A stretch of 24,000 bases of DNA from Anaerosolibacter carboniphilus (GTDB lineage Bacteria > Bacillota > Clostridia > Peptostreptococcales > Thermotaleaceae), in the NCBI RefSeq assembly GCF_014205875.1, contig NZ_JACHEN010000022.1, positions 49,524-73,523 on the forward strand, written 5' to 3'. Each line of letters opens with the position of its first letter. The stretch's first letter is position 1. This document shows positions 627-24,000 of the stretch, piece by piece. Position numbers and translations under genes: made by a program. The notes beneath the pieces are model-generated. The model was not told where the DNA came from, made no database searches, and saw only the letters and a program-made list of their open reading frames with translations.

Positions 627-661
627 ATATAGGAAATTATGGTTTTCAATTTCCTATATAT
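625..661. promoter_or_regulatory. Perfect 14-bp inverted repeat, candidate operator or activator site; its 3' arm contains a TATATA -10-like hexamer
   Basis: ATATATAGGAAATT (625-638), 9-nt spacer, AATTTCCTATATAT (648-661). It lies directly upstream of the GC-rich leader of the pepV-like/PTS cluster. Confidence 0.5.
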
Positions 662-800
662 GGGGTGTGCAGAGGGGATGCCCCTTTGCCGTATTCAGGA
701 AGGTCCTCAGGAACCTGCATTGCAGGCGTCGAAGGAAACCTAGGGTTTCCTAGCGAAAACAAATTGCCGATAGGCAATTTTGTTCTTTTGTAGTATTCAA
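662..800 (+). promoter_or_regulatory. Structured GC-rich 5' leader ending in an intrinsic terminator (attenuator-like); class not recognised
   Basis: Three consecutive GC-rich triloop hairpins: AGGGG-ATG-CCCCT (~673-685), CCTGC-ATT-GCAGG (~713-725) and GGAAACC-TAG-GGTTTCC (~734-750). They are followed by GAAAACAAATTGCC-GATA-GGCAATTTTGTTC plus CTTTTG (755-790). Downstream AAGAACAA (~828-835) can pair with the terminator's 3' arm TTGTTCTT. Confidence 0.45.
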
Positions 801-10432: not shown

Positions 10433-10482
10433 ATTGATATATATAATATTTTGAATATTTCAAAAAAACGCCTCTTGATATA

Positions 10483-10511
10483 TTGACATGTTTTGATTGA
10501 TTGAATATAAT
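10483..10511 (+). promoter_or_regulatory. Consensus sigma-70 promoter of the corrinoid protein/fhs/folD/fchA/metF operon
   Basis: TTGACA (10483-10488), exactly 17 nt, TATAAT (10506-10511). It lies ~265 nt upstream of the first start codon. Confidence 0.6.
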
Positions 10512-10782
10512 TAAGCTAAAGTTATAACAGTTAGATACATGTATATACAGGTTTTGTGTGAAGTGTAAATGAATAAAACATGATAGACAAATGAAAATGA
10601 ATGATTCTTAGAACGCTGATTCGAGTTATGCTTATTCCTGTTGATGGAAAACGTTTTTGTGTTTTCTTATATTTGAAATCATAATATGCAGCATATGCTG
10701 ATGGCGTTTCGTAGATATCATAATTCGGATTTTCAAGGATGAGTAGGACATAAAAAATAATGAATAAGGGGGATATGAACGT

Positions 10783-11421
10783 ATGATGGATTTAAGTGCA
10801 TTAAAGCAAGCTGTTGGAGACCTTGATGAAGGGACCGTGCTAGACATGCTAAACAAATTTGTAGCCACAAATCCTGGTGAAGAAGAAGCACAAAAGGTGG
10901 TCAATGCATGTCAGCAGGGAATGGCAGTTGTAGGGGATTTGTTTGACAAGGGTGAGTATTTTGTAGGGGATCTGATTTTTGCAGGGGAGCTTCTTACCAG
11001 TGCCATTGATGTGTTAAAACCAGTCATTGGATCAGGAAGCACAGAAAAGGCAGGAACCATCGTCCTTGGTACAGTACAAGGAGATTTGCATGACATCGGA
11101 AAGAACATTTTCAAAAGCATGGCAGAAGCAGCTGGTTTCGAGGTTCATGACCTTGGCATTGATGTGTCTGTGGATGCTTTCGTAGAAAAGGTAAAGGAAG
11201 TAAAACCACAAATCGTAGGTATGAGCGGTGTTCTAACCCTAGCCATTGATGCCATGAAAAATACAATCGATGAACTGAAGACTGCAGGTGTAAGGGATGA
11301 TATTAAAATTGTTATCGGTGGAAACCCTGTAACGAAAGAAGCCTGTGAGTTGGTAGGGGCCGATGCCTTCACCACCAATGCAGCAGAAGGTATCAAAATA
11401 TGCCAGGGGTGGGTGTGCTAA
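10783..11421 (+). CDS. Cobalamin(corrinoid)-binding protein, MtaC/MtbC/MttC-like (copy 1)
   Basis: 212 aa with an N-terminal helical cap domain, then the B12-binding motif [11 protein letters not shown] (DxHxxG), MSGVLT and the Rossmann-like ...KIVIGG... segment. RBS AAGGGGGA. Confidence 0.85.
10878..11094 (+). repeat. High-identity duplicated segment shared with corrinoid protein copy 2 (partner 23784-24000)
   Basis: By-eye alignment at an offset of 12906 nt gives about 14 mismatches in 217 nt. The first ~95 nt of the two genes are much more diverged. Confidence 0.8.
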
Positions 11422-11539: not shown

Positions 11540-13210
11540 ATGAAGACAGATGTACAAATTGCGCAAGAAGCCAAGATGCTTCCGATCATGGACGTGGCGA
11601 AAAATCTTGGAATTGGGGAAGATGAACTGGAGCTTTATGGCAAATATAAGGCAAAGGTTTCTCTGGATGTATTAAAGAGACTTGAAAACAAACCGAATGG
11701 GAAATTGGTTTTGGTTACGGCAATCAATCCAACGCCAGCAGGAGAGGGAAAGACAACAACGAATGTGGGCCTGTCTATGGGATTAAACAAGATAGGGAAA
11801 AAGACAATTACAGCTTTAAGGGAACCTTCCCTTGGACCATGCTTCGGTGTAAAGGGAGGAGCTGCTGGCGGTGGATATGCCCAAGTTGTGCCCATGGATG
11901 ATATCAATCTCCACTTTACGGGAGACTTCCATGCCATTACCTCAGCCCATAACCTTCTCGCAGCTTTATTAGACAATCACCTCCATCAGGGGAATGAATT
12001 AAATATCGATCCAAAGCGAGTGGTTTGGAGAAGGGTGCTCGACATGAATGATAGAGCTCTAAGGAACTTAGTGCTGGGTCTAGGTGGAAAGGGAGATGGT
12101 TTTGTTAGACAAGGTGGATTTGATATAACGGTTGCATCGGAAATCATGGCCATCCTTTGCCTCGCAGACAGTCTTTCAGATCTAAAGAACCGGCTTTCGA
12201 GGATGGTTGTTGCATATGATAGAGACGGGAAGGCGGTTACAGCGGGAGATTTGGAAGCAACAGGTGCGATGACACTGCTTCTGAAAGACGCCATCAAGCC
12301 AAACTTGGTTCAGACCCTTGAGAATACACCAGCGTTTATCCATGGTGGGCCATTCGCAAACATTGCCCATGGATGCAACTCCGTCATGGCTACAAAGGTG
12401 GCACTAAAGTTAGCTGACTATGTTGTGACAGAAGCAGGATTCGGTGCTGATCTCGGAGCTGAGAAGTTCTTCGACATCAAGTGCAGATTTGCAGGTCTGC
12501 ATCCAGATGCCGCCGTAATCGTAGCTACAGTAAGAGCTCTTAAAATGCATGGTGGTGTTGCGAAGCACGAACTTAGCTTTGAAAATCTTGATGCCCTTGC
12601 CAAGGGATTTGAAAATATCGAAAGGCATATTGAAAATGTTGCCAAGTTTGGTGTGCCAGTGGTGGTTGCAATCAACAAATTTCCAACAGATACAGAAGCA
12701 GAGATTAACCTTTTAAGAGAAAAATGCAGTGTATATGGAGTAGAGGTTGTACTATCTGAAGTATTCACAAAAGGTGGAGAAGGCGGCGTTGACCTTGCCA
12801 AAAAGGTTGTTGAGATTTGTGAGAGCAAAGAAAGCCACTATGCGCCCCTATATGATGTGGAAGGAACAATTCCAGAAAAGATCACAAAAATTGCAACTGA
12901 AATATACAGGGCGGACAGTGTAGAATTTACACCAGAAGCGAAGAAGCAAATTTCAAATATCAAAAAGCTAGGACTTGATAAAATGCCGATTTGTATGGCG
13001 AAGACCCAATACTCATTCTCTGATAATCCATCCCTCCTTGGTGCGCCAACTGGATTTAAAGTAACGGTTAGAGAGGTCAGGGTATCAGCAGGTGCAGGTT
13101 TCCTAGTGGCATTAACTGGAGAAATTATGACGATGCCTGGTCTTCCAAAGGTTCCTGCAGCCAATGGTATGGATATTACAGAGGATGGAGAAATTATCGG
13201 TCTATCATAA
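11540..13210 (+). CDS. fhs: Formate--tetrahydrofolate ligase
   Basis: N-terminus [16 protein letters not shown]..., P-loop-like [34 protein letters not shown] and the C-terminal ...[11 protein letters not shown].. tail. The ORF-track start 11363 is a read-through artefact overlapping the upstream gene. ATG 11540 has RBS AGAAGGGGG. Confidence 0.95.
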
Positions 13211-18500: not shown

Positions 18501-20039
18501 TTGAAGGAATTGCAATTACGGATAAGAGAATTGGAGGAAATGTTAGCGGAACAGATACAGCAAAGCAAAGAATTAAGGTTGGATAACCAACGGCTGGCGG
18601 AAGAGAATAAAGATTTAAGATTCAAAGTGAACCTAATGGATGATATGCTGGACAATATGTATGAAGGCGTCCGTGCTGTTGATTCAGAGGGAAGAGTCAT
18701 TATTTATTCAAAGGCTAACGAAAAATATGATGTATGGAAAAAAGAAGAGGTCATCGGGAAGCATGAAAATGACCTATGGAATCCTCCCATAGGCTTCACC
18801 TTTAACAAACAGCAAATCATCAGATTAAAAAAACCCATAAAAAATGTAAAAATGATTGGCAGTTCAAAGGCTGGGAAACAATTTCATATCATAGCAGGTT
18901 TTTATCCATACTTTGAAGATGGTGAATGTAAAGCCTTCTATTATACGGGGAGAGATATTACCACATTGGATTCATTTATCATGCAAACCTATGAAATTCA
19001 GCGGAACATGACGAAAAAGAACAATGAGAAGAAACGCATGAATGGCTGTAGGTTTACCCTAAATGATATCATAGGCACCAGTGCAGCGATTACGAGCTGT
19101 AAGGATAAAGCGAGAAGGTTTTCGAATTATAATGCCAACATACTCATTTACGGGGAGACGGGAACCGGAAAAGAAATGTTTGCCCAAGGTATTCACAATG
19201 AAAGCTTATACTCCCATGAACCTTTCATTGCATTAAACTGCTCAGCAGTACCTGAATCCCTTATTGAAAGCATATTGTTTGGTACTGTAAAAGGGGCATT
19301 TACAGGGGCTGAAAATATGTCAGGATTATTTGAACAGGTAGGGAAGGGGACTCTTTTTCTAGATGAAATCAATTCCATGCCTTTGGCCATGCAAGCAAAA
19401 CTTCTTCGGGTACTTCAAGAGAAAAAGATTAGAAGGATCGGAGGTGTTAAAGATATCGATGTGGAATGCTGCGTGATTAGTGCAACCAACATGGATCCTA
19501 AGGAAGCAGTGAAAAAATCCATCTTAAGAGAGGATTTCTATTATAGAATATCCACAGTATTGTTGACAATACCACCCCTAAGAGAAAGAAAGGAAGACAT
19601 TGCTCTACTTATTCAGCATTTTATAAAGGAATTAAATAAAAGATTTTCAAAGCATATAAAGAGTATAGATCCAGATGTACTGTCTTCCTTGATGGAGTAT
19701 CACTGGCCTGGAAATGTACGAGAGCTTCTAAACACATTGGAATATGCAGTTATTCTTTGTGAAGACAATCAGACGGTCTTAACCTATGAGCTTTTTCCTA
19801 ATTATATTTATTATAAAAAGAATAGACAGTGTGATTTTGGAGAGGTCAGCATTGGACAGGATAGTTTCATTGAATACAGCAATACGGAGGATTTAAACAC
19901 CCTATTGGATAATTACGAAAAAAATATTATTGTATCCGTCATCAATAAGTCAAGCGGGAACATTTCTACAGCAGCGAAGAAACTAGGTATTGATCGGAAA
20001 TCATTGTATAGAAAGATTGAAAAATATAAGTTGAAATAA
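18501..20039 (+). CDS. Sigma-54-dependent transcriptional activator (bEBP): coiled-coil + PAS sensor, AAA+ domain, Fis-type HTH
   Basis: Walker A GETGTGKE, the sigma-54-contact loop GAFTGA (..VKGAFTGAE..), Walker B LFLDEI, WPGNVREL, and the C-terminal HTH ISTAAKKLGIDRKSLYRKIEKY. The N-terminus is a heptad-like helix followed by a PAS-like region. TTG start after AAGGAG. Confidence 0.9.
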   Translation: MKELQLRIRELEEMLAEQIQQSKELRLDNQRLAEENKDLRFKVNLMDDMLDNMYEGVRAVDSEGRVIIYSKANEKYDVWKKEEVIGKHENDLWNPPIGFTFNKQQIIRLKKPIKNVKMIGSSKAGKQFHIIAGFYPYFEDGECKAFYYTGRDITTLDSFIMQTYEIQRNMTKKNNEKKRMNGCRFTLNDIIGTSAAITSCKDKARRFSNYNANILIYGETGTGKEMFAQGIHNESLYSHEPFIALNCSAVPESLIESILFGTVKGAFTGAENMSGLFEQVGKGTLFLDEINSMPLAMQAKLLRVLQEKKIRRIGGVKDIDVECCVISATNMDPKEAVKKSILREDFYYRISTVLLTIPPLRERKEDIALLIQHFIKELNKRFSKHIKSIDPDVLSSLMEYHWPGNVRELLNTLEYAVILCEDNQTVLTYELFPNYIYYKKNRQCDFGEVSIGQDSFIEYSNTEDLNTLLDNYEKNIIVSVINKSSGNISTAAKKLGIDRKSLYRKIEKYKLK

Positions 20040-20045
20040 TAGGGA

Positions 20046-20070
20046 TGTGTCAGCATGACACATGTGTAAT
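20046..20070. promoter_or_regulatory. Upstream activator sequence (UAS) copy 1
   Basis: TGTGTCAGCATGACACATGTGTAAT. TGTGTCA/TGACACA form a palindrome, overlapping the palindrome CACATGTG. It starts 190 bp upstream of the -24 element at 20236, and the same motif occurs at 21761 and 23405. Confidence 0.65.
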
Positions 20071-20115
20071 CTTGCTACAGAACCATCTGAAATACCAAAT
20101 TGTTTTCTTTTTATC

Positions 20116-20151
20116 AAACAACTGTGTCTTGATGACACAGTTGTTTTTTTT
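20116..20151 (+). terminator. Rho-independent terminator of the bEBP gene; its stem resembles the UAS half-sites
   Basis: AAACAACTGTGTC-TTGAT-GACACAGTTGTTT plus a T-run. The stem core TGTGTC..TGACACA resembles the UAS. Confidence 0.7.
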
Positions 20152-20235
20152 ATTATTTTTTCAAGTGCTAAGAAAGAAAATGCTGAGATATTGGAATATC
20201 AAGGCGAAAGGGGTTTTAATGGAAGATACAATACT

Positions 20236-20251
20236 TGGCATAAATATTGCT
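20236..20251 (+). promoter_or_regulatory. Sigma-54 (-24/-12) promoter 1
   Basis: TGGCAT-AAATA-TTGCT matches TGGCAC-N5-TTGCW, ~115 nt upstream of ATG 20366. Confidence 0.75.
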
Positions 20252-20365
20252 TTTTCCATTCTTAAGCATGACAGAAATGCAAGGACAGCATCAGCAGAAT
20301 AGTGAACAGCGGATGATGATAAAGGATGCATGCATTGCTGTCTAAGTGAAAAGGGGTGTATAGCA

Positions 20366-21733
20366 ATGTCGGATGTAAAGAAACTTCAACAAGAGAGAAA
20401 GCAGTTGTTTGAGGATTTATTTGACGGAAAAATACCAAAAAGGGTGCCCATTCGTGCCAACCTGCCTTTGGAGTTTAGTATTCAGTATGCAGGGCTGCCT
20501 TTGGCTGAAACCCAATGGACATTAGATGGTGTGGAAGAGGCCTTAGACAAAGCGTGTCAAATGTCAAAGTCAGACTATTACCCTTCGGGATTTTCAAGAT
20601 ATCCTGCCCATCTTCAAATACTGGGAGCAAAGGGATTTGTCATGGGTTCCAACGGATTCATTCAGCATCCAGAAATCATCGGTATGGAAGTAGGTGAGTA
20701 TGATGAATTCATTAAAAATCCATATGACTGTATTATGGAAAAAATACTTCCACGACTCTATCCAGAATTGAATACAGATCCGACAACACGTTCCATCGTA
20801 TTTGCAAAAGCTTTTAAAGCATTCTTTGATTATATAGAGGCATATGGAAAAATAGATGCAAAATTAATTGAAAAATATGGATTTCATGTGATTCCTAGAG
20901 AATCCTTCAGTGTAGTAACTGCTCCCTTTGATTTTGTGGCGGATTTCTTAAGAAGCTTCAAGGGAATTGCAATGGATGTAAAAAGATGTCCTGAAAAAAT
21001 ACAAGAGGCATGTGAGGCCATGCTGCCGATTCAAATCAAGAGAGGTATACCGCCTGTACCTTCAAAGTATGGTCATACTTTTATTCCGTTACATATGGGC
21101 AGTTATTTACGAAACAGTGATTTCGAAAAGCTGTATTGGCCCACATTCAGTAAAATGGTTCATGCATTGGCAGACGCAGGACAGCCTTGTCTGATATTCT
21201 GTGAACATGATTGGATGAGATATTTGGATTATCTCTATGAGCTCCCTGAAAATACAAGGCTCTATTTTGAGTTTGGCGATCCAAAGCTTGCAAAAGAAAA
21301 ACTTGGCAAGAAGCATATTATTTCTGGCTTCTATCCTTTGACGTATCTACAGTCAGCTACCAAGCAGCAGTGTATTGACAAGGCAAAAGAGCTTATTGAC
21401 ATTTTAGCTCCTGGTGGGAAATATTTCTTTGAATTTGATAAGAGCCCTGTAAGCTTGGACAGTGTAAATGTAGAAAATTATATGGCAGTACTTCAGTATG
21501 TGGCTGAAAATGCAAAATATGATAACCCAGGAGAAGCGGCAGCATCAGAGGATAAGTCTGCCAATAAACCTAAAACGATTGAAATACCTGAGTTTAAATC
21601 TAATTACTATAAAGCGTGGGAAGAATACAAGGTAGGACATCCTGAAATCGGGCCAAAGATAGAACCAATTATGGCTTCAAAATTACAAAGTTACGAAGAA
21701 ATGATATTTAGAATGATTTTCATGCTAATATAG
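20366..21733 (+). CDS. URO-D/MtaA-superfamily-like corrinoid-dependent methyltransferase, paralog 1, with a C-terminal linker and ~44-aa tail domain
   Basis: Start MSDVKK... after AAAGGGG; the track start 20330 has no RBS. The core is ~60% identical by eye to paralog 2. The ...ILAPGGKYFFEFD... region near the core C-terminus recalls the GPGGG region of URO-D-family methyltransferases. Adjacent corrinoid-protein genes support the role. The family call was not verified by search. Confidence 0.6.
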   Translation: MSDVKKLQQERKQLFEDLFDGKIPKRVPIRANLPLEFSIQYAGLPLAETQWTLDGVEEALDKACQMSKSDYYPSGFSRYPAHLQILGAKGFVMGSNGFIQHPEIIGMEVGEYDEFIKNPYDCIMEKILPRLYPELNTDPTTRSIVFAKAFKAFFDYIEAYGKIDAKLIEKYGFHVIPRESFSVVTAPFDFVADFLRSFKGIAMDVKRCPEKIQEACEAMLPIQIKRGIPPVPSKYGHTFIPLHMGSYLRNSDFEKLYWPTFSKMVHALADAGQPCLIFCEHDWMRYLDYLYELPENTRLYFEFGDPKLAKEKLGKKHIISGFYPLTYLQSATKQQCIDKAKELIDILAPGGKYFFEFDKSPVSLDSVNVENYMAVLQYVAENAKYDNPGEAAASEDKSANKPKTIEIPEFKSNYYKAWEEYKVGHPEIGPKIEPIMASKLQSYEEMIFRMIFMLI

Positions 21734-21760
21734 TGGGGATCATTGGGTGATATTCATTAT

Positions 21761-21794
21761 TGTGAAAATATGACACATGTGTAATTATGTCACA
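21761..21794. promoter_or_regulatory. UAS copy 2
   Basis: TGTGAAAATATGACACATGTGTAAT plus an extra TGTCACA at 21788-21794. It starts 188 bp upstream of the -24 element at 21949. Confidence 0.65.
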
Positions 21795-21826
21795 GTGATC
21801 ATGAAAACATAGTAAACATTTTCTTT

Positions 21827-21870
21827 AGTAAAATAAGGTGTGGTATTTTGCCACGCTTTATTTTACTTTC
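21827..21870 (+). terminator. Rho-independent terminator after methyltransferase paralog 1
   Basis: A 17-bp stem, AGTAAAATAAGGTGTGG / CCACGCTTTATTTTACT (2 G-U pairs), followed by TTC and a T-rich tail. Confidence 0.7.
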
Positions 21871-21948
21871 TAAAATCAATACAGAGCAGGGCGCCATGTA
21901 AACCACGTAATATCAATAGATGAAAAAAATAAACAAATGGGAGATACT

Positions 21949-21964
21949 TGGCATAAGAATTGCT
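21949..21964 (+). promoter_or_regulatory. Sigma-54 (-24/-12) promoter 2
   Basis: TGGCAT-AAGAA-TTGCT, ~70 nt upstream of ATG 22031. Confidence 0.75.
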
Positions 21965-22030
21965 ATTAATTTCTATATAAGTGCGATGTAGGCTGAAGAA
22001 ATAAAAATTTGTCAAGGGTGGGTGAACAAT

Positions 22031-23185
22031 ATGACCGATGTAAAAGCATTACAACAAGAAAGAGTACAGATCTTTACGGATTTATTTGATGGTAAGGTTC
22101 CAAAGAGAGTACCAATCAACTTGCTTTTATCCTTTGAGTTTGCGATTCAGTATGCAGGAAAGGATTTAGCAGAAGCTCAGTGGGATACTTCTACGCTTGA
22201 AGAAGTATTTGATAAAATGTGCAGAGACTTTATTACGGATACGAACCCCGCACTGGCATTTAGATATCCTGTATATTACAAATTGTTAGGGGCTAGGAAT
22301 TTTGTGATGAGCTCCAGTGGTTTTTTACAGCATCCAGAAGTCCATGGGTTTGAAGCTGAAGAATATGATGAGTTTATAGCATCGCCCTATGATTGTATTA
22401 TGGAAAAGATATTGCCAAGGATTTACACAGAATTAAACACAAATCCAGTACAAAGGTCTCTTGTAATGGCAAAGGCTTTTAAGGCATTTTACGATGAAAT
22501 GATCAATGGAGGAATGATTGTTGAAAAACTGAATGATAGATATGGTTTTTCTCCTATAGGAGGCTTTCAAGGAATGTGTGAAGCTCCCTTTGATTTTATG
22601 TCAGATCAATTGAGGGGATTTAAGAATATTACGGGAGATATCAGAAGGATTCCTGATAAGGTAGAAGCAGCTTGTGAAGCAGTTACACCTTTGATGATTA
22701 AAACAGGAATGCCTATAAATCCTTCAAAGTACAGTGCTACTTTCATTCCTCTACATATGGCGCCTTTTATTCGGGATAAAGACTTTGAAAGATTCTATTG
22801 GCCAACCTTCAAGAAAGTAGTAGATGAATTAGCGGCTGTAGGGCAGCCATCCTATCTCTTTGTTGAACATGACTGGATGCGTTACCTTGATTATCTGTAT
22901 GAACTGCCTGAGAATACCAGAATGATGTTTGAGTATGGAGATCCAAAGCTTGTGAAAGAAAAGTTAGGGAAAAAACATATACTAACTGGATTCTATCCAA
23001 TTTCTTTATTGAAGGCAGGTACCAAACAACAATGTATTGATAAAGCGAAGGAGCTTATTGATATCCTTGCACCTGGTGGAAAGTATATGTTCAATTTTGA
23101 TAAGAATATTATTACTGCAGATAGTGTTAATATTGAGAACTTACAAGCGGTATTATCCTATGTGGCTGAAAATGCCAATTATTAA
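22031..23185 (+). CDS. URO-D/MtaA-superfamily-like corrinoid-dependent methyltransferase, paralog 2 (core only)
   Basis: Start MTDVKALQQER... at ATG 22031; the track lists GTG 22022. Blocks identical to paralog 1 include EHDWMRYLDYLYELPENTR, GDPKL.KEKLGKKHI and TKQQCIDKAKELIDILAPGGKY. It ends ...AENANY-TAA. Confidence 0.6.
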   Translation: MTDVKALQQERVQIFTDLFDGKVPKRVPINLLLSFEFAIQYAGKDLAEAQWDTSTLEEVFDKMCRDFITDTNPALAFRYPVYYKLLGARNFVMSSSGFLQHPEVHGFEAEEYDEFIASPYDCIMEKILPRIYTELNTNPVQRSLVMAKAFKAFYDEMINGGMIVEKLNDRYGFSPIGGFQGMCEAPFDFMSDQLRGFKNITGDIRRIPDKVEAACEAVTPLMIKTGMPINPSKYSATFIPLHMAPFIRDKDFERFYWPTFKKVVDELAAVGQPSYLFVEHDWMRYLDYLYELPENTRMMFEYGDPKLVKEKLGKKHILTGFYPISLLKAGTKQQCIDKAKELIDILAPGGKYMFNFDKNIITADSVNIENLQAVLSYVAENANY

Positions 23186-23199
23186 AGGAGGGAATATAG

Positions 23200-23343
23200 A
23201 TGGAAACAAAGTATTATAAAACTTGGGATGAATATATAAAGGAACATCCAGAAATTGATGAGAAACTTATACCTGTTATAGCACCTAAAATACAGAGTTA
23301 TGAAGAAATGATGTTTAGTTTCGTTATGACGCTGCTCATGTAA
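23200..23343 (+). CDS. 47-aa small protein homologous to the C-terminal tail of paralog 1 (not in the ORF track)
   Basis: ATG 23200 lies 8 nt after AAAGGAGGG. The product METKYYKTWDEYIKEHPEIDEKLIPVIAPKIQSYEEMMFSFVMTLLM* aligns with SNYYKAWEEYKVGHPEIGPKIEPIMASKLQSYEEMIFRMIFMLI* (21599-21733), about 22 identities by eye. Confidence 0.7.
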   Translation: METKYYKTWDEYIKEHPEIDEKLIPVIAPKIQSYEEMMFSFVMTLLM

Positions 23344-23404
23344 GGAAAGAAAAAATCTTCCGTAGCAGAGGGGAGAAAGATCAAGGCAGTAAAACAGTTA
23401 CAAG

Positions 23405-23428
23405 TGTGACGTATTGTCACATGTGTAA
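23405..23428. promoter_or_regulatory. UAS copy 3
   Basis: TGTGACGTATTGTCACATGTGTAA(T). TGTGAC..GTCACA form a palindrome. It starts 190 bp upstream of the -24 element at 23595. Confidence 0.65.
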
Positions 23429-23474
23429 TAATGATACAAAAGGGTCAGAACTTAGAAAAGATCTCTATCGTACT

Positions 23475-23508
23475 AAAAAAGCTGTGAAGTCGTGCCACAG
23501 CTTTTTTT
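23475..23508 (+). terminator. Rho-independent terminator after paralog 2 and the small ORF
   Basis: AAAAAAGCTGTG-(9-nt loop)-CACAGCTTTTTTT. Confidence 0.8.
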
Positions 23509-23594
23509 ATTTTCTAAAACAAGAGAATAAAATGAAAAACATCAAACTTTGTAAAATCAAAGGAAATGGGTGAGAGGATGAATTAGGAAATATT

Positions 23595-23610
23595 TGGCAC
23601 AGATATTGCT
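23595..23610 (+). promoter_or_regulatory. Sigma-54 (-24/-12) promoter 3
   Basis: TGGCAC-AGATA-TTGCT, ~80 nt upstream of ATG 23689. Confidence 0.8.
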
Positions 23611-23688
23611 GTTTATTTGTATATACATGTACATGGTGGTTCTAAATGCCGTCAATACGTGAATCTATACAATAAAGGGGGCAGTTTT

Positions 23689-24000
23689 ATGATTGATGTA
23701 AAAGTACTATCACAGATGGTGGGGGATCTGGATGAAGGTGCCGTATTAGACATGCTGAATGAATTTGTGTCTACAAATCCCAGTGAAGAAGAGGCACAAA
23801 AGGTAGTCAATGCATGTCAGCAGGGAATGGCCATTGTAGGGGATTTGTTTGACAAGGGCGAGTATTTTGTAGGGGATCTGATCTTTGCAGGGGAACTTCT
23901 TACCAGCGCTATTGATGTGTTAAAGCCAGTCATTGGGTCAGGAAGCACAGAAAAGGCTGGAACCATCGTCCTTGGTACAGTACAAGGAGATTTACATGAT
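23689..24000 (+). CDS. Cobalamin(corrinoid)-binding protein, copy 2 (5' part; runs off the window)
   Basis: [69 protein letters not shown]...GDLHD is collinear with copy 1. RBS AAAGGGGG. It is open to the window end. Confidence 0.85.
   Translation, partial: MIDVKVLSQMVGDLDEGAVLDMLNEFVSTNPSEEEAQKVVNACQQGMAIVGDLFDKGEYFVGDLIFAGELLTSAIDVLKPVIGSGSTEKAGTIVLGTVQGDLHD

What the first reader, a model, noticed from the sequence alone, without database searches (positions are those of the whole stretch)
18501..23610. Triplicated UAS-hairpin-sigma-54 promoter cassette controlling corrinoid methyltransferase genes, next to a PAS-domain bEBP
Seen in sequence: three intergenic regions share one architecture.
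- Each has a ~25-bp motif: TGTGTCAGCATGACACATGTGTAAT at 20046, TGTGAAAATATGACACATGTGTAAT at 21761, and TGTGACGTATTGTCACATGTGTAAT at 23405.
- Each motif is followed by a strong hairpin with a T-run.
- Each then has a near-consensus -24/-12 element: TGGCATAAATATTGCT at 20236, TGGCATAAGAATTGCT at 21949, and TGGCACAGATATTGCT at 23595.
- The distance from motif start to TGGCA is 190, 188 and 190 bp.

The gene immediately upstream of the first cassette encodes a bEBP with a GAFTGA loop and an N-terminal PAS-like sensor.

Established knowledge: bEBPs bind palindromic UASs roughly 100-200 bp upstream of sigma-54 promoters.

Inference: the bEBP senses the substrate or a metabolite and switches on three separate transcription units (MT paralog 1; MT paralog 2 plus the small ORF; corrinoid protein 2 and whatever follows). 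Each enhancer lies upstream of the previous unit's terminator, inside its 3' UTR. That is an unusual nested layout. I do not recall sigma-54 control of corrinoid methyltransferase modules in Firmicutes being well described.
Basis: partly seen in the sequence, partly recalled or inferred. Interest (0 to 1): 0.8.

Follow-up and report, generated by a model that had tools for sequence, protein, structure and literature searches.

The report
Sigma-54 enhancer-terminator-promoter cassettes for methyltransferase genes
Three copies of one conserved control module (activator-binding sites, a terminator hairpin and a sigma-54 promoter) sit in front of three vitamin-B12-type methyltransferase units beside their activator gene; the wiring is standard but was not described for these genes.

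Summary
The window is from Anaerosolibacter carboniphilus.

- two abutting 17-bp palindromes, TGTG-N9-CACA then TGTG-N9-yACA;
- a hairpin flanked by A and T runs, centred about 86 bp after the start of the first palindrome;
- a fourth conserved box, GTAATATCAA, about 43 bp before the promoter;
- an exact TGGCA-N6-TTGC promoter.

The same module occurs next to orthologues of the activator (64-72% identical) or in front of the same genes in Clostridium aceticum, Geosporobacter, Anaerovirgula, a Thermotaleaceae genome and one unnamed assembly. That gives 9 cassettes, only 46-57% identical overall. The module is absent from 80 loci that hold paralogous activators.

The hairpin shows strong compensatory change, so it is a real terminator. 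Its core also scores as a third activator site.

Best reading: a PAS-sensor sigma-54 activator switches on three insulated units encoding methyltransferases of the uroporphyrinogen-decarboxylase (URO-D) fold and a corrinoid protein, with the substrate unknown. Binding, start sites and rpoN were not tested.

This is a new member of a known kind. Sigma-54 control of a betaine methyltransferase cluster was reported in Sporomusa in 2025. Interest is moderate.

The parts
18501..20039 (+). Gene for the sigma-54 activator (bacterial enhancer-binding protein, bEBP): N-terminal coiled region, PAS-like sensor, AAA+ domain with GAFTGA loop, HTH_8 DNA-binding domain. 512 aa from a TTG start.
   Evidence: Pfam: Sigma54_activat E 2.5e-61, AAA_lid_14, HTH_8, PAS_4 23.3 bits against a cutoff of 23.1. 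GAFTGA and Walker A GETGTGKE are invariant among orthologues. Orthologues are 58-72% identical in Geosporobacter, C. aceticum, a Thermotaleaceae genome and unnamed assemblies.
20046..20079 (.). Cassette 1 enhancer: site A TGTGTCAGCATGACACA (20046-20062) abutting site B TGTGTAATCTTGCTACA (20063-20079). It starts 7 bp after the activator's stop codon.
20116..20146 (+). Cassette 1 hairpin followed by a T-run, read as the intrinsic terminator of the activator gene. Its core, 20123-20139 (TGTGTCTTGATGACACA), is a third enhancer-like site (site C).
   Evidence: Terminator scan: 13 pairs then TTTTTTATTAT. Folding energy -18.8. Matrix score in the top 0.01% of 17-mers. Covariation across 9 cassettes.
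20193..20202 (.). Cassette 1 conserved box GGAATATCAA, 43 bp before TGGCA. Function unknown.
20236..20251 (+). Sigma-54 promoter P1, TGGCATAAATATTGCT. Predicted start site is near 20261.
20366..21733 (+). Methyltransferase paralogue 1 (455 aa, long form). It is 100% identical to Anaerosolibacter carboniphilus HNQ80_003446.
   Evidence: Closest solved structure is CdmB, 9rui, E 1.4e-20.
21761..21794 (.). Cassette 2 enhancer: site A TGTGAAAATATGACACA abutting site B TGTGTAATTATGTCACA.
21827..21867 (+). Cassette 2 hairpin with T-run. Its core, 21839-21855 (TGTGGTATTTTGCCACG), is site C.
   Evidence: Folding energy -24.2.
21907..21916 (.). Cassette 2 conserved box GTAATATCAA.
21949..21964 (+). Sigma-54 promoter P2, TGGCATAAGAATTGCT. 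Predicted start site is near 21974.
22031..23185 (+). Methyltransferase paralogue 2 (384 aa, short form, URO-D fold).
   Evidence: Pfam URO-D E 7e-12. Short forms of about 384 aa are widespread.
23200..23343 (+). A 47-aa ORF homologous to the C-terminal tail of the long-form methyltransferase. It is conserved after short-form genes elsewhere.
   Evidence: BLASTP against residues 410-455 of paralogue 1: 48% identity, E 2e-14. Equivalent ORFs are in L102 and L101.
23405..23438 (.). Cassette 3 enhancer: site A TGTGACGTATTGTCACA abutting site B TGTGTAATAATGATACA.
23475..23507 (+). Cassette 3 hairpin with T-run. Its core, 23483-23499 (TGTGAAGTCGTGCCACA), is site C.
   Evidence: Folding energy -18.9.
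23551..23560 (.). Cassette 3 conserved box GTAAAATCAA.
23595..23610 (+). Sigma-54 promoter P3, TGGCACAGATATTGCT. Predicted start site is near 23620.
23689..24000 (+). Start of corrinoid protein 2, which runs off the window. In relatives it is followed by a 454-aa methyltransferase and a transporter gene; in L098 a further 455-aa methyltransferase follows.
   Evidence: Pfam B12-binding_2 E 1.8e-14. Orthologous loci L098 and L084.

Best explanation
The region is a small sigma-54 regulon.

The activator gene at 18501-20039 encodes a one-component enhancer-binding protein. An unknown ligand, presumably the methylated growth substrate or a product of it, is sensed by its PAS-like N-terminus.

The activator's HTH_8 domain binds as dimers to 17-bp dyad sites of the form TGTG-N9-CACA. 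This format parallels the 17-bp dyad sites of NtrC (my own knowledge). Each target has two abutting sites, A and B, centred about 182 and 165 bp upstream of the TGGCA element. A third, weaker site (C) is centred about 104 bp upstream.

The assembled AAA+ ring contacts sigma-54 RNA polymerase held at TGGCA-N6-TTGC by looping the DNA, and opens the promoter using ATP.

Three units are driven:
- methyltransferase 1;
- methyltransferase 2 plus the 47-aa tail ORF;
- corrinoid protein 2 and the genes after it.

Site C lies inside a hairpin flanked by A and T runs. In RNA this hairpin terminates the preceding unit. Each cassette is therefore a self-insulated module: sites, then terminator, then promoter. 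Read-through from the unit upstream is blocked and each promoter stays strictly dependent on the activator.

A fourth conserved box, GTAATATCAA, lies between the hairpin and the promoter. Length differences between the blocks are close to one helical turn. Together these suggest a phased, bent nucleoprotein complex.

Shown: the sequence elements, their statistics, their conservation and covariation, and the protein domains.

Inferred: binding, the ligand, the start sites, termination, and the role of site C and the box.
For: Statistics in the window:
- Exact promoter matches: 3 found against 0.15 expected. Dyad matches: 6 found against 0.36 expected. All lie in the cassettes.
- The 25-bp motif is expected 0.00 times by chance.

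Protein evidence:
- The activator has every hallmark domain and the GAFTGA loop.

Conservation:
- Nine cassettes from six sources share the block order and spacing. A to TGGCA is 177-199 bp (190 in four of nine), A to C is 75-86 bp, and C to TGGCA is 100-114 bp.
- The cassettes are only 46-57% identical overall, apart from one orthologous pair at 71%. Conservation is therefore confined to the blocks.
- In C. aceticum, in a Geosporobacter assembly, in an unnamed assembly and in a Thermotaleaceae genome, the cassette starts 2-19 bp after the stop codon of the orthologous activator.
- None of 80 loci around paralogous activators (43% identity or less) holds a dyad plus promoter.

Hairpin:
- 92% of cells are paired, 8 of 14 pairs change on both sides, and 0 of 500 shuffles reach this.
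- Folding energies are -16 to -30 kcal/mol, and every hairpin has a T-run.

Site C:
- A matrix built only from sites A and B places all nine hairpin cores in the top 0.007-0.06% of 17-mers.
- The inner 9 nt alone fall in the top 2.5% or better in eight of nine.

Box:
- A match of at least 8 of 10 is found in eight of nine cassettes, 42-44 bp before TGGCA in seven of them. The expectation is 0.06 per 60-nt search window.

Genes driven:
- They belong to the substrate:corrinoid methyltransferase family (CdmB E 1.4e-20; URO-D) and to corrinoid proteins.

Relatives:
- C. aceticum and G. ferrireducens are treated as sigma-54-bearing species, and the Geosporobacter orthologue Gferi_03315 is listed as an enhancer-binding protein, in PMC6615313.
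Against: - No experimental datum was available: no start-site map, no binding assay, no expression data.
- rpoN could not be checked in the A. carboniphilus genome.
- The PAS match is at the Pfam threshold.
- Two of the nine hairpin cores have lost the outer TGTG/CACA through compensatory changes (TGAG..CTCA in C. aceticum, CGAG..CTCG in Anaerovirgula). Pairing, not activator binding, is therefore the dominant constraint there.
- The Anaerovirgula cassette has no activator gene within the 5 kb upstream or the 16 kb downstream that were fetched.
- A 58%-identical orthologue (L103) shows no cassette in the 450 bp available downstream.
- Abutting sites 17 bp apart centre to centre put two dimers on nearly opposite faces of the helix. 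That is not the usual arrangement.
- The nine cassettes share ancestry, so the constant spacing is partly inherited.
Confidence: 0.8

Rival explanations
1. The hairpin is only an intrinsic terminator. Its likeness to the enhancer sites is a relic: a copy of the palindrome was recruited as a terminator stem and no longer binds the activator. The enhancer then consists of sites A and B alone.
For: Compensatory changes keep the pairing while destroying TGTG/CACA in two of nine cassettes. A-run and T-run flanks, a terminator feature, are found only at site C. Hairpin covariation extends outside the 17-mer.
Against: The inner 9 nt of the core, which a terminator loop does not need, score as enhancer-like in eight of nine, including the two that lost the outer bases. 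The distance from hairpin to promoter stays at 110-114 bp or drops by about one helical turn to 100-102 bp. The Anaerovirgula cassette keeps the hairpin although no co-directional gene ends within 460 bp upstream.
Confidence: 0.45
2. The TGTG-N9-CACA dyads are bound by another regulator, for example a Crp/Fnr-type protein whose classic site TGTGA-N6-TCACA differs by one base of spacing. The true enhancer sites of the activator would then lie elsewhere.
For: Sequence likeness to the CRP consensus (my own knowledge). Site A of cassette 3 reads TGTGAC-N5-GTCACA.
Against: The dyads sit about 100-180 bp upstream of a sigma-54 element, not at the -41 to -72 positions used by Crp-type activators (my own knowledge). 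They follow the orthologous activator gene in four other loci and are absent from 80 paralogue loci. No Crp/Fnr gene is in the window.
Confidence: 0.06
3. The cassettes are inert repeated intergenic sequence, left over from gene duplication or from a small mobile element, and have no regulatory role.
For: The two methyltransferase genes are paralogues, so some upstream similarity could come from duplication.
Against: The cassettes are as different from each other as from those of other genera (46-57%). Identity is confined to four functional-looking blocks. The third cassette precedes an unrelated gene, the corrinoid protein. Orthologous positions are kept across genera. No further copies lie elsewhere in the window or in the fetched loci.
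Confidence: 0.03

Closest known systems
NtrC-type enhancers (for example glnAp2) and enhancer-binding proteins in general
   Same: An AAA+ activator with a GAFTGA loop and a Fis-type HTH. 17-bp dyad sites, several per promoter, 100-200 bp upstream of a GG-N10-GC promoter. Activation by DNA looping.
   Different: The sensor is a PAS-like one-component domain, not a phosphorylated receiver. Two sites abut directly, 17 bp centre to centre. A third site lies inside a terminator hairpin. The half-site is TGTG rather than TGCACC. The comparison with NtrC rests on my own knowledge.
PAS-type enhancer-binding proteins of Clostridiales (Nie et al. 2019, PMC6615313), including PrdR
   Same: The same domain type; 357 of 387 one-component activators in that survey carry PAS. 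The Geosporobacter orthologue Gferi_03315 is listed there. The best NCBIfam match is PrdR.
   Different: The words methyltransferase and corrinoid do not occur in that paper. The PrdR score of 410 is well below its cutoff of 795, so this is not PrdR.
SigL-dependent betaine methyltransferase cluster of Sporomusa sphaeroides KIAC (PMC12456013, 2025)
   Same: Sigma-54 promoters (TGGCA-N6-TTGC) and sigma-54 activators in a Firmicute acetogen, controlling corrinoid-dependent methyl-transfer genes.
   Different: That cluster holds betaine and trimethylamine methyltransferase genes; here the enzymes are URO-D fold. The organism is a Negativicute. Enhancer motifs and cassette architecture are not mentioned in the passage I read.
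RocR enhancer between rocG and rocA of Bacillus subtilis (Belitsky and Sonenshein 1999)
   Same: A Firmicute sigma-54 enhancer placed at the 3' end of the preceding gene, which is the nested layout.
   Different: I could not read that paper. I have only its title from a reference list and my own knowledge. I know of no report that the roc enhancer doubles as a terminator or is repeated as a module.
Orthologous methyltransferase loci of Eubacterium and Acetobacterium (L100, L101)
   Same: The same methyltransferase family (57-61% identity), including the short form plus a 46-aa tail ORF.
   Different: There the genes sit beside a TetR-family gene and have a sigma-70-like TTGACA/TATACT promoter, with no -24/-12 element. 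The sigma-54 wiring was seen here only in Thermotaleaceae and near relatives.

Membership tests
Sigma-54-dependent promoter | GG and GC doublets exactly ten bases apart within TGGCA-N6-TTGC | tested here: met
   Three exact matches against 0.15 expected. The same element is present in all six orthologous cassettes.
Sigma-54-dependent promoter | Correct strand and a plausible distance to a downstream start codon | tested here: met
   TGGCA lies 130, 82 and 94 bp before the ATG codons at 20366, 22031 and 23689.
Sigma-54-dependent promoter | rpoN present in the genome | not testable with these tools
   The genome of A. carboniphilus could not be fetched. Relatives C. aceticum and G. ferrireducens are analysed as sigma-54 species in PMC6615313.
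Sigma-54-dependent promoter | Transcription start about 12 nt after the GC doublet, dependent on the activator | not testable with these tools
   This needs dRNA-seq or 5'-RACE.
Bacterial enhancer-binding protein | Sigma-54 interaction AAA+ domain (PF00158) | tested here: met
   E 2.5e-61, 206.7 bits.
Bacterial enhancer-binding protein | GAFTGA loop and Walker A motif | tested here: met
   KGAFTGA and GETGTGKE are seen in the alignment of 7 orthologues.
Bacterial enhancer-binding protein | C-terminal helix-turn-helix DNA-binding domain | tested here: met
   HTH_8, E 4.5e-11, residues 471-509.
Bacterial enhancer-binding protein | N-terminal sensory domain (PAS) | tested here: inconclusive
   PAS_4 scores 23.3 bits against a cutoff of 23.1; PAS and PAS_9 are below their cutoffs.
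Enhancer (upstream activator sequence) | Dyad-symmetric sites 100-200 bp upstream that co-occur with the cognate activator across genomes | tested here: met
   The negative control of 80 paralogue loci is.
Enhancer (upstream activator sequence) | Bound by the activator | not testable with these tools
   This needs a gel shift or a footprint.
Intrinsic (Rho-independent) terminator | Stable stem-loop followed by a T-run | tested here: met
   Folding energies of -16 to -30 kcal/mol, with a T-run in all nine. The simple scan found the first of the three in the window.
Intrinsic (Rho-independent) terminator | Pairing kept through compensatory change | tested here: met
   8 of 14 pairs change on both sides, 92% of cells are paired, 0 of 500 shuffles reach this.
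Corrinoid-dependent methyl-transfer system (substrate methyltransferase, corrinoid protein, methyl-THF methyltransferase, activating enzyme) | Corrinoid protein with B12-binding domains | tested here: met
   B12-binding_2 at 23689 onward. The full protein at 10783-11421 has both domains.
Corrinoid-dependent methyl-transfer system (substrate methyltransferase, corrinoid protein, methyl-THF methyltransferase, activating enzyme) | Substrate:corrinoid methyltransferase of the URO-D fold | tested here: met
   URO-D E 7e-12 for paralogue 2. CdmB E 1.4e-20 for paralogue 1. The substrate is unknown.
Corrinoid-dependent methyl-transfer system (substrate methyltransferase, corrinoid protein, methyl-THF methyltransferase, activating enzyme) | Methyl-THF methyltransferase and reductive activator in the same unit | tested here: not met
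   Neither is in the window after 18501. Both occur in a separate G. ferrireducens island that has no cassette.
PrdR (NCBIfam NF041552) | Score above the curated cutoff | tested here: not met
   410 bits against a cutoff of 795.

The most novel reading that the evidence does not exclude
The hairpin is a single sequence with two jobs. As RNA it terminates the unit upstream. As DNA it is the promoter-proximal third binding site of the activator. It is held in helical phase with sites A and B, with a conserved GTAATATCAA box that may be a bending or architectural-protein site, and with the sigma-54 promoter. The cassette would then be a natural, portable, self-insulating enhancer-promoter module that the lineage has placed in front of one, two or three units.
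Probability: 0.35. Interest if true: 0.65.

Novelty: new member of a known kind. Interest (0 to 1): 0.45.

Why it matters
How anaerobes regulate their many corrinoid-dependent methyltransferase systems is called 'largely unexplored' in a 2026 paper (PMC13222342). Here the sequence gives a complete hypothesis that can be tested directly: one activator, a defined 17-bp operator, three promoters and a short list of target genes.

This could help find the unknown substrate of a widespread methyltransferase family that also occurs in Eubacterium limosum and Acetobacterium.

It would also give acetogen engineers a tightly off, inducible and insulated promoter module.

The possible double use of a terminator hairpin as an enhancer site is a small but neat point of gene-regulation design.

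Tried and rejected
1. The genome-contig scan with the activator alignment used generic AAA+ peptides and returned only paralogues of 43% identity or less. It was useless for orthology and was reused as a negative control.

2. The metagenome pattern scan gave 13 hits. On inspection these were chance matches or unrelated high-GC organisms.

3. Exact-sequence look-ups failed for the A. carboniphilus proteins and for the G. ferrireducens activator. The rest of this genome, including rpoN and whatever follows corrinoid protein 2, was therefore not seen.

4. Rfam found no riboswitch or known RNA in the 5' leaders. The only hit in the window is Clostridiales-2 RNA at 655-739.

5. I searched for rpoN in the fetched loci. 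It was found only in three loci from uncultured or unclassified Clostridia genomes, which are too distant to serve as a query.

6. I looked for the cassette in the G. ferrireducens methyltransferase island (L102) and in the Eubacterium and Acetobacterium loci. None is present.

7. Literature searches for sigma-54 together with O-demethylase or methoxylated substrates found nothing relevant. The E. limosum choline pathway uses a different enzyme superfamily.

8. I considered the conserved box as an IHF site. It carries the WATCAA core in four of nine cassettes but lacks the TTR part of the consensus. The consensus and the view that Firmicutes generally lack IHF are my own knowledge. The idea is left open.

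Full report
OBSERVATION

- The 25-bp pattern is expected 0.00 times in shuffles of the window.
- The exact promoter core TGGCA-N6-TTGC occurs three times against 0.15 expected.
- The exact dyad TGTG-N9-CACA occurs six times against 0.36 expected.
- All nine of these occurrences lie inside the three intergenic regions.

The gene at 18501-20039 is a sigma-54 activator. It has the sigma-54 interaction domain (E 2.5e-61), an AAA lid, HTH_8 and a PAS match at threshold. It also has GAFTGA and Walker A motifs.

The window comes from Anaerosolibacter carboniphilus, family Thermotaleaceae, order Peptostreptococcales. Methyltransferase 1 is 100% identical to HNQ80_003446. The window also carries methyl-branch genes of the Wood-Ljungdahl pathway and another corrinoid protein.

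ANATOMY, REFINED

The '25-bp motif' is the start of a 34-bp unit made of two abutting 17-bp palindromes. Site A is TGTG-N9-CACA and site B is TGTG-N9-yACA. The invariant CACATGTG is their junction.

The hairpin is centred about 86 bp after the start of site A. Its core is a third 17-mer of the same kind:
- TGTGTCTTGATGACACA at 20123
- TGTGGTATTTTGCCACG at 21839
- TGTGAAGTCGTGCCACA at 23483

A fourth block, GTAATATCAA, lies 42-44 bp before TGGCA.

The order is therefore A/B, then hairpin with site C, then box, then promoter. Start codons follow 82-130 bp after the promoter.

COMPARATIVE EVIDENCE

Orthologues of the activator are few: 72% identity in Geosporobacter ferrireducens, 64% in Clostridium aceticum, 68% in a Thermotaleaceae genome, and 58-66% in unnamed assemblies. 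The next tier falls to 44%.

I retrieved five loci with cassettes, holding six distinct cassettes:
- C. aceticum (L081), one cassette;
- an unnamed assembly (L082), one cassette;
- a Thermotaleaceae genome (L084), one cassette;
- a Geosporobacter assembly (L098), two cassettes;
- Anaerovirgula multivorans (L099), one cassette.

Across the nine cassettes in total:
- all have sites A and B, a hairpin flanked by A and T runs (-16 to -30 kcal/mol) and an exact TGGCA-N6-TTGC;
- the distance from A to TGGCA is 177-199 bp, and 190 bp in four of them;
- overall pairwise identity is only 46-57%, except one orthologous pair at 71%, so the similarity is confined to the four blocks.

In four loci the cassette begins 2-19 bp after the stop codon of the orthologous activator.

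None of 80 loci around paralogous activators contains a dyad followed by a promoter.

THE HAIRPIN

Aligned on their centres, the nine hairpins are 92% paired. Eight of 14 pairs show changes on both sides, and 0 of 500 shuffles reach this. Versions with the 3' partners slid out of register pair at only 43-53%. Covariation extends beyond the 17-mer into the A/T flanks, and a T-run follows in every case. This is what an intrinsic terminator looks like.

A weight matrix built only from sites A and B also ranks all nine hairpin cores in the top 0.007-0.06% of all 17-mers in these loci. The inner nine bases alone rank in the top 2.5% or better in eight of nine. This includes the two cores (C. aceticum and Anaerovirgula) that replaced TGTG/CACA by TGAG/CTCA and CGAG/CTCG.

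The hairpin is therefore a real structure whose core is a copy of the enhancer site. Whether it still binds the activator is open. I give that about 0.35-0.45.

SPACING

- A to C is 75-78 bp in eight cassettes and 86 bp in Anaerovirgula.
- C to TGGCA is 110-114 bp in seven cassettes and 100-102 bp in two.
- The two shortenings lie in different segments. One is between hairpin and box in L084, and the other is between box and promoter in the second L098 cassette.
- The three length differences are thus 8-12 bp each, close to one helical turn. This suggests that all four blocks are read on the DNA in a fixed rotational register.
- With so few independent events this is suggestive only.

WHAT IS CONTROLLED

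Methyltransferases 1 and 2 belong to one family of the URO-D fold. The closest solved structure is CdmB, the chloromethane:corrinoid methyltransferase of Acetobacterium dehalogenans, at E 1.4e-20. The substrate is unknown.

The family has long forms of about 455 aa and short forms of about 384 aa. The short form is followed by a conserved ORF of about 47 aa that matches the tail of the long form (E 2e-14). It is seen in this window, in G. ferrireducens and in a Eubacterium-like contig. Paralogue 2 is therefore a normal split form, not a broken gene.

Cassette 3 drives a corrinoid protein. In relatives this gene is followed by a 454-aa methyltransferase and a transporter gene, and in L098 by a further 455-aa methyltransferase.

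No methyl-THF methyltransferase or reductive activator is seen in the unit. These occur in a separate Geosporobacter island that has no cassette.

In Eubacterium and Acetobacterium the orthologous genes sit beside a TetR-family gene and a sigma-70-type promoter. Among the loci examined, the sigma-54 wiring was seen only in Thermotaleaceae and close relatives.

MECHANISM

The most likely mechanism is the standard one for enhancer-binding proteins.
1. A ligand is sensed by the PAS-like domain.
2. The activator binds as dimers to the 17-bp dyads and assembles into an oligomer.
3. DNA looping brings it to sigma-54 polymerase, and ATP drives promoter opening.
4. Each promoter is shielded from read-through by the terminator that sits between its enhancer and its -24/-12 element.

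All steps beyond the sequence features are inferred.

COMPARISON WITH WHAT IS KNOWN

The system is a member of the enhancer-binding-protein/sigma-54 class by every feature I could test. It is not PrdR (410 bits against a cutoff of 795).

The 2019 survey of sigma-54 regulons in Clostridiales lists the Geosporobacter orthologue only in its inventory. It never mentions methyltransferases or corrinoids.

A 2025 study of Sporomusa sphaeroides reports sigma-54 promoters in a betaine/trimethylamine methyltransferase cluster. The general idea therefore has a precedent.

Seven of the 80 paralogue loci also have a corrinoid-protein gene near a PAS-type activator, and six of these contain sigma-54-like promoter matches.

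A 2026 paper states that regulation of these methyltransferase systems is largely unexplored.

An enhancer at the 3' end of the preceding gene is known from rocG-rocA of Bacillus subtilis. I have this from a title cited and from my own knowledge; the paper itself could not be read.

VERDICT

This is a new member of a known kind. It has one unusual design feature, a terminator hairpin built from an enhancer-site copy within a phased four-block module, which deserves a bench test. Interest is 0.45.

Noticed in passing
window 23200-23343; L102 11170-11313; L101 7843-7983: A conserved ORF of about 47 aa follows short-form (about 384 aa) methyltransferase genes and matches the C-terminal tail of the long form (about 455 aa). 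This is a recurrent split-gene arrangement, not a frameshift.
   Followed up: partly
L081 11817-11954 (C. aceticum); L099 5389-5526 (Anaerovirgula multivorans): 45-aa ORFs just before the 454-aa methyltransferase gene are made of the first ~20 and last ~20 residues of the corrinoid protein. This looks like an in-frame internal deletion of that gene, kept in two genera.
   Followed up: partly
L084 10001-11146: The activator orthologue in the Thermotaleaceae genome lacks residues 44-164 (the PAS-like sensor) but keeps the N-terminal 43 residues, the AAA+ domain and the HTH. It may be a constitutively active variant. Its cassette is intact.
   Followed up: no
window 20193-20202, 21907-21916, 23551-23560 and the same position in L081, L084, L098 (two) and L099: A conserved box GTAATATCAA lies 42-44 bp before TGGCA in seven cassettes and 34 bp before it in an eighth. 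The expectation is 0.06 per 60-nt search window. Its function is unknown; it may be a site for a DNA-bending protein.
   Followed up: partly
window 23611-23640; L084 about 11360-11385; L098 about 11565-11590: The three cassettes that precede an intact corrinoid-protein gene share TATATACATGTA just after the -12 element, near the predicted transcription start.
   Followed up: no
L087 3980-4340 (minus strand), metagenome contig with 57% G+C: An unrelated high-GC organism has a similar layout. TGTGTAGCTGCTTCACA occurs twice, 86 bp apart, with a third dyad 19 bp after the first copy. TGGCACACGCATTGC lies 101 bp after the second copy. There is no terminator-like T-run.
   Followed up: no
L100 258-600; L101 6361-6670: Orthologous methyltransferase genes in Acetobacterium-like and Eubacterium-like contigs lie beside a TetR-family gene. 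They have TTGACA / TATACT or TACACT promoters flanked by repeated AACCGCGTTTAA or ATCATGTTTA words, which are likely operators.
   Followed up: no
L004, L006, L008, L040, L043, L063, L065: Seven of 80 loci around paralogous PAS-type sigma-54 activators (Sporomusa, Maledivibacter, Acididesulfobacillus, Desulfosporosinus and others) hold corrinoid-protein genes within 10 kb. Six of the seven contain exact TGGCA-N6-TTGC matches. Sigma-54 control of corrinoid methyl-transfer systems may be common in Firmicutes.
   Followed up: partly
L098 15087-15101: An exact TGGCATCATTATTGC lies 93 bp before a 455-aa methyltransferase gene, inside the end of the transporter gene, with no dyad sites nearby. It is either a chance match or a promoter served by a distant enhancer.
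   Followed up: no
window 655-739: Rfam match to Clostridiales-2 RNA (64.7 bits against a gathering score of 58.6), just before the M20 peptidase gene at 845.
   Followed up: no
window 10440-10790: The first corrinoid-protein gene (10783-11421), which sits at the head of the formate-THF ligase / FolD / cyclohydrolase / MTHFR-like gene cluster, is preceded by a sigma-70-like TTGACA-17-TATAAT. It has no cassette, so the two corrinoid paralogues are wired differently.
   Followed up: no
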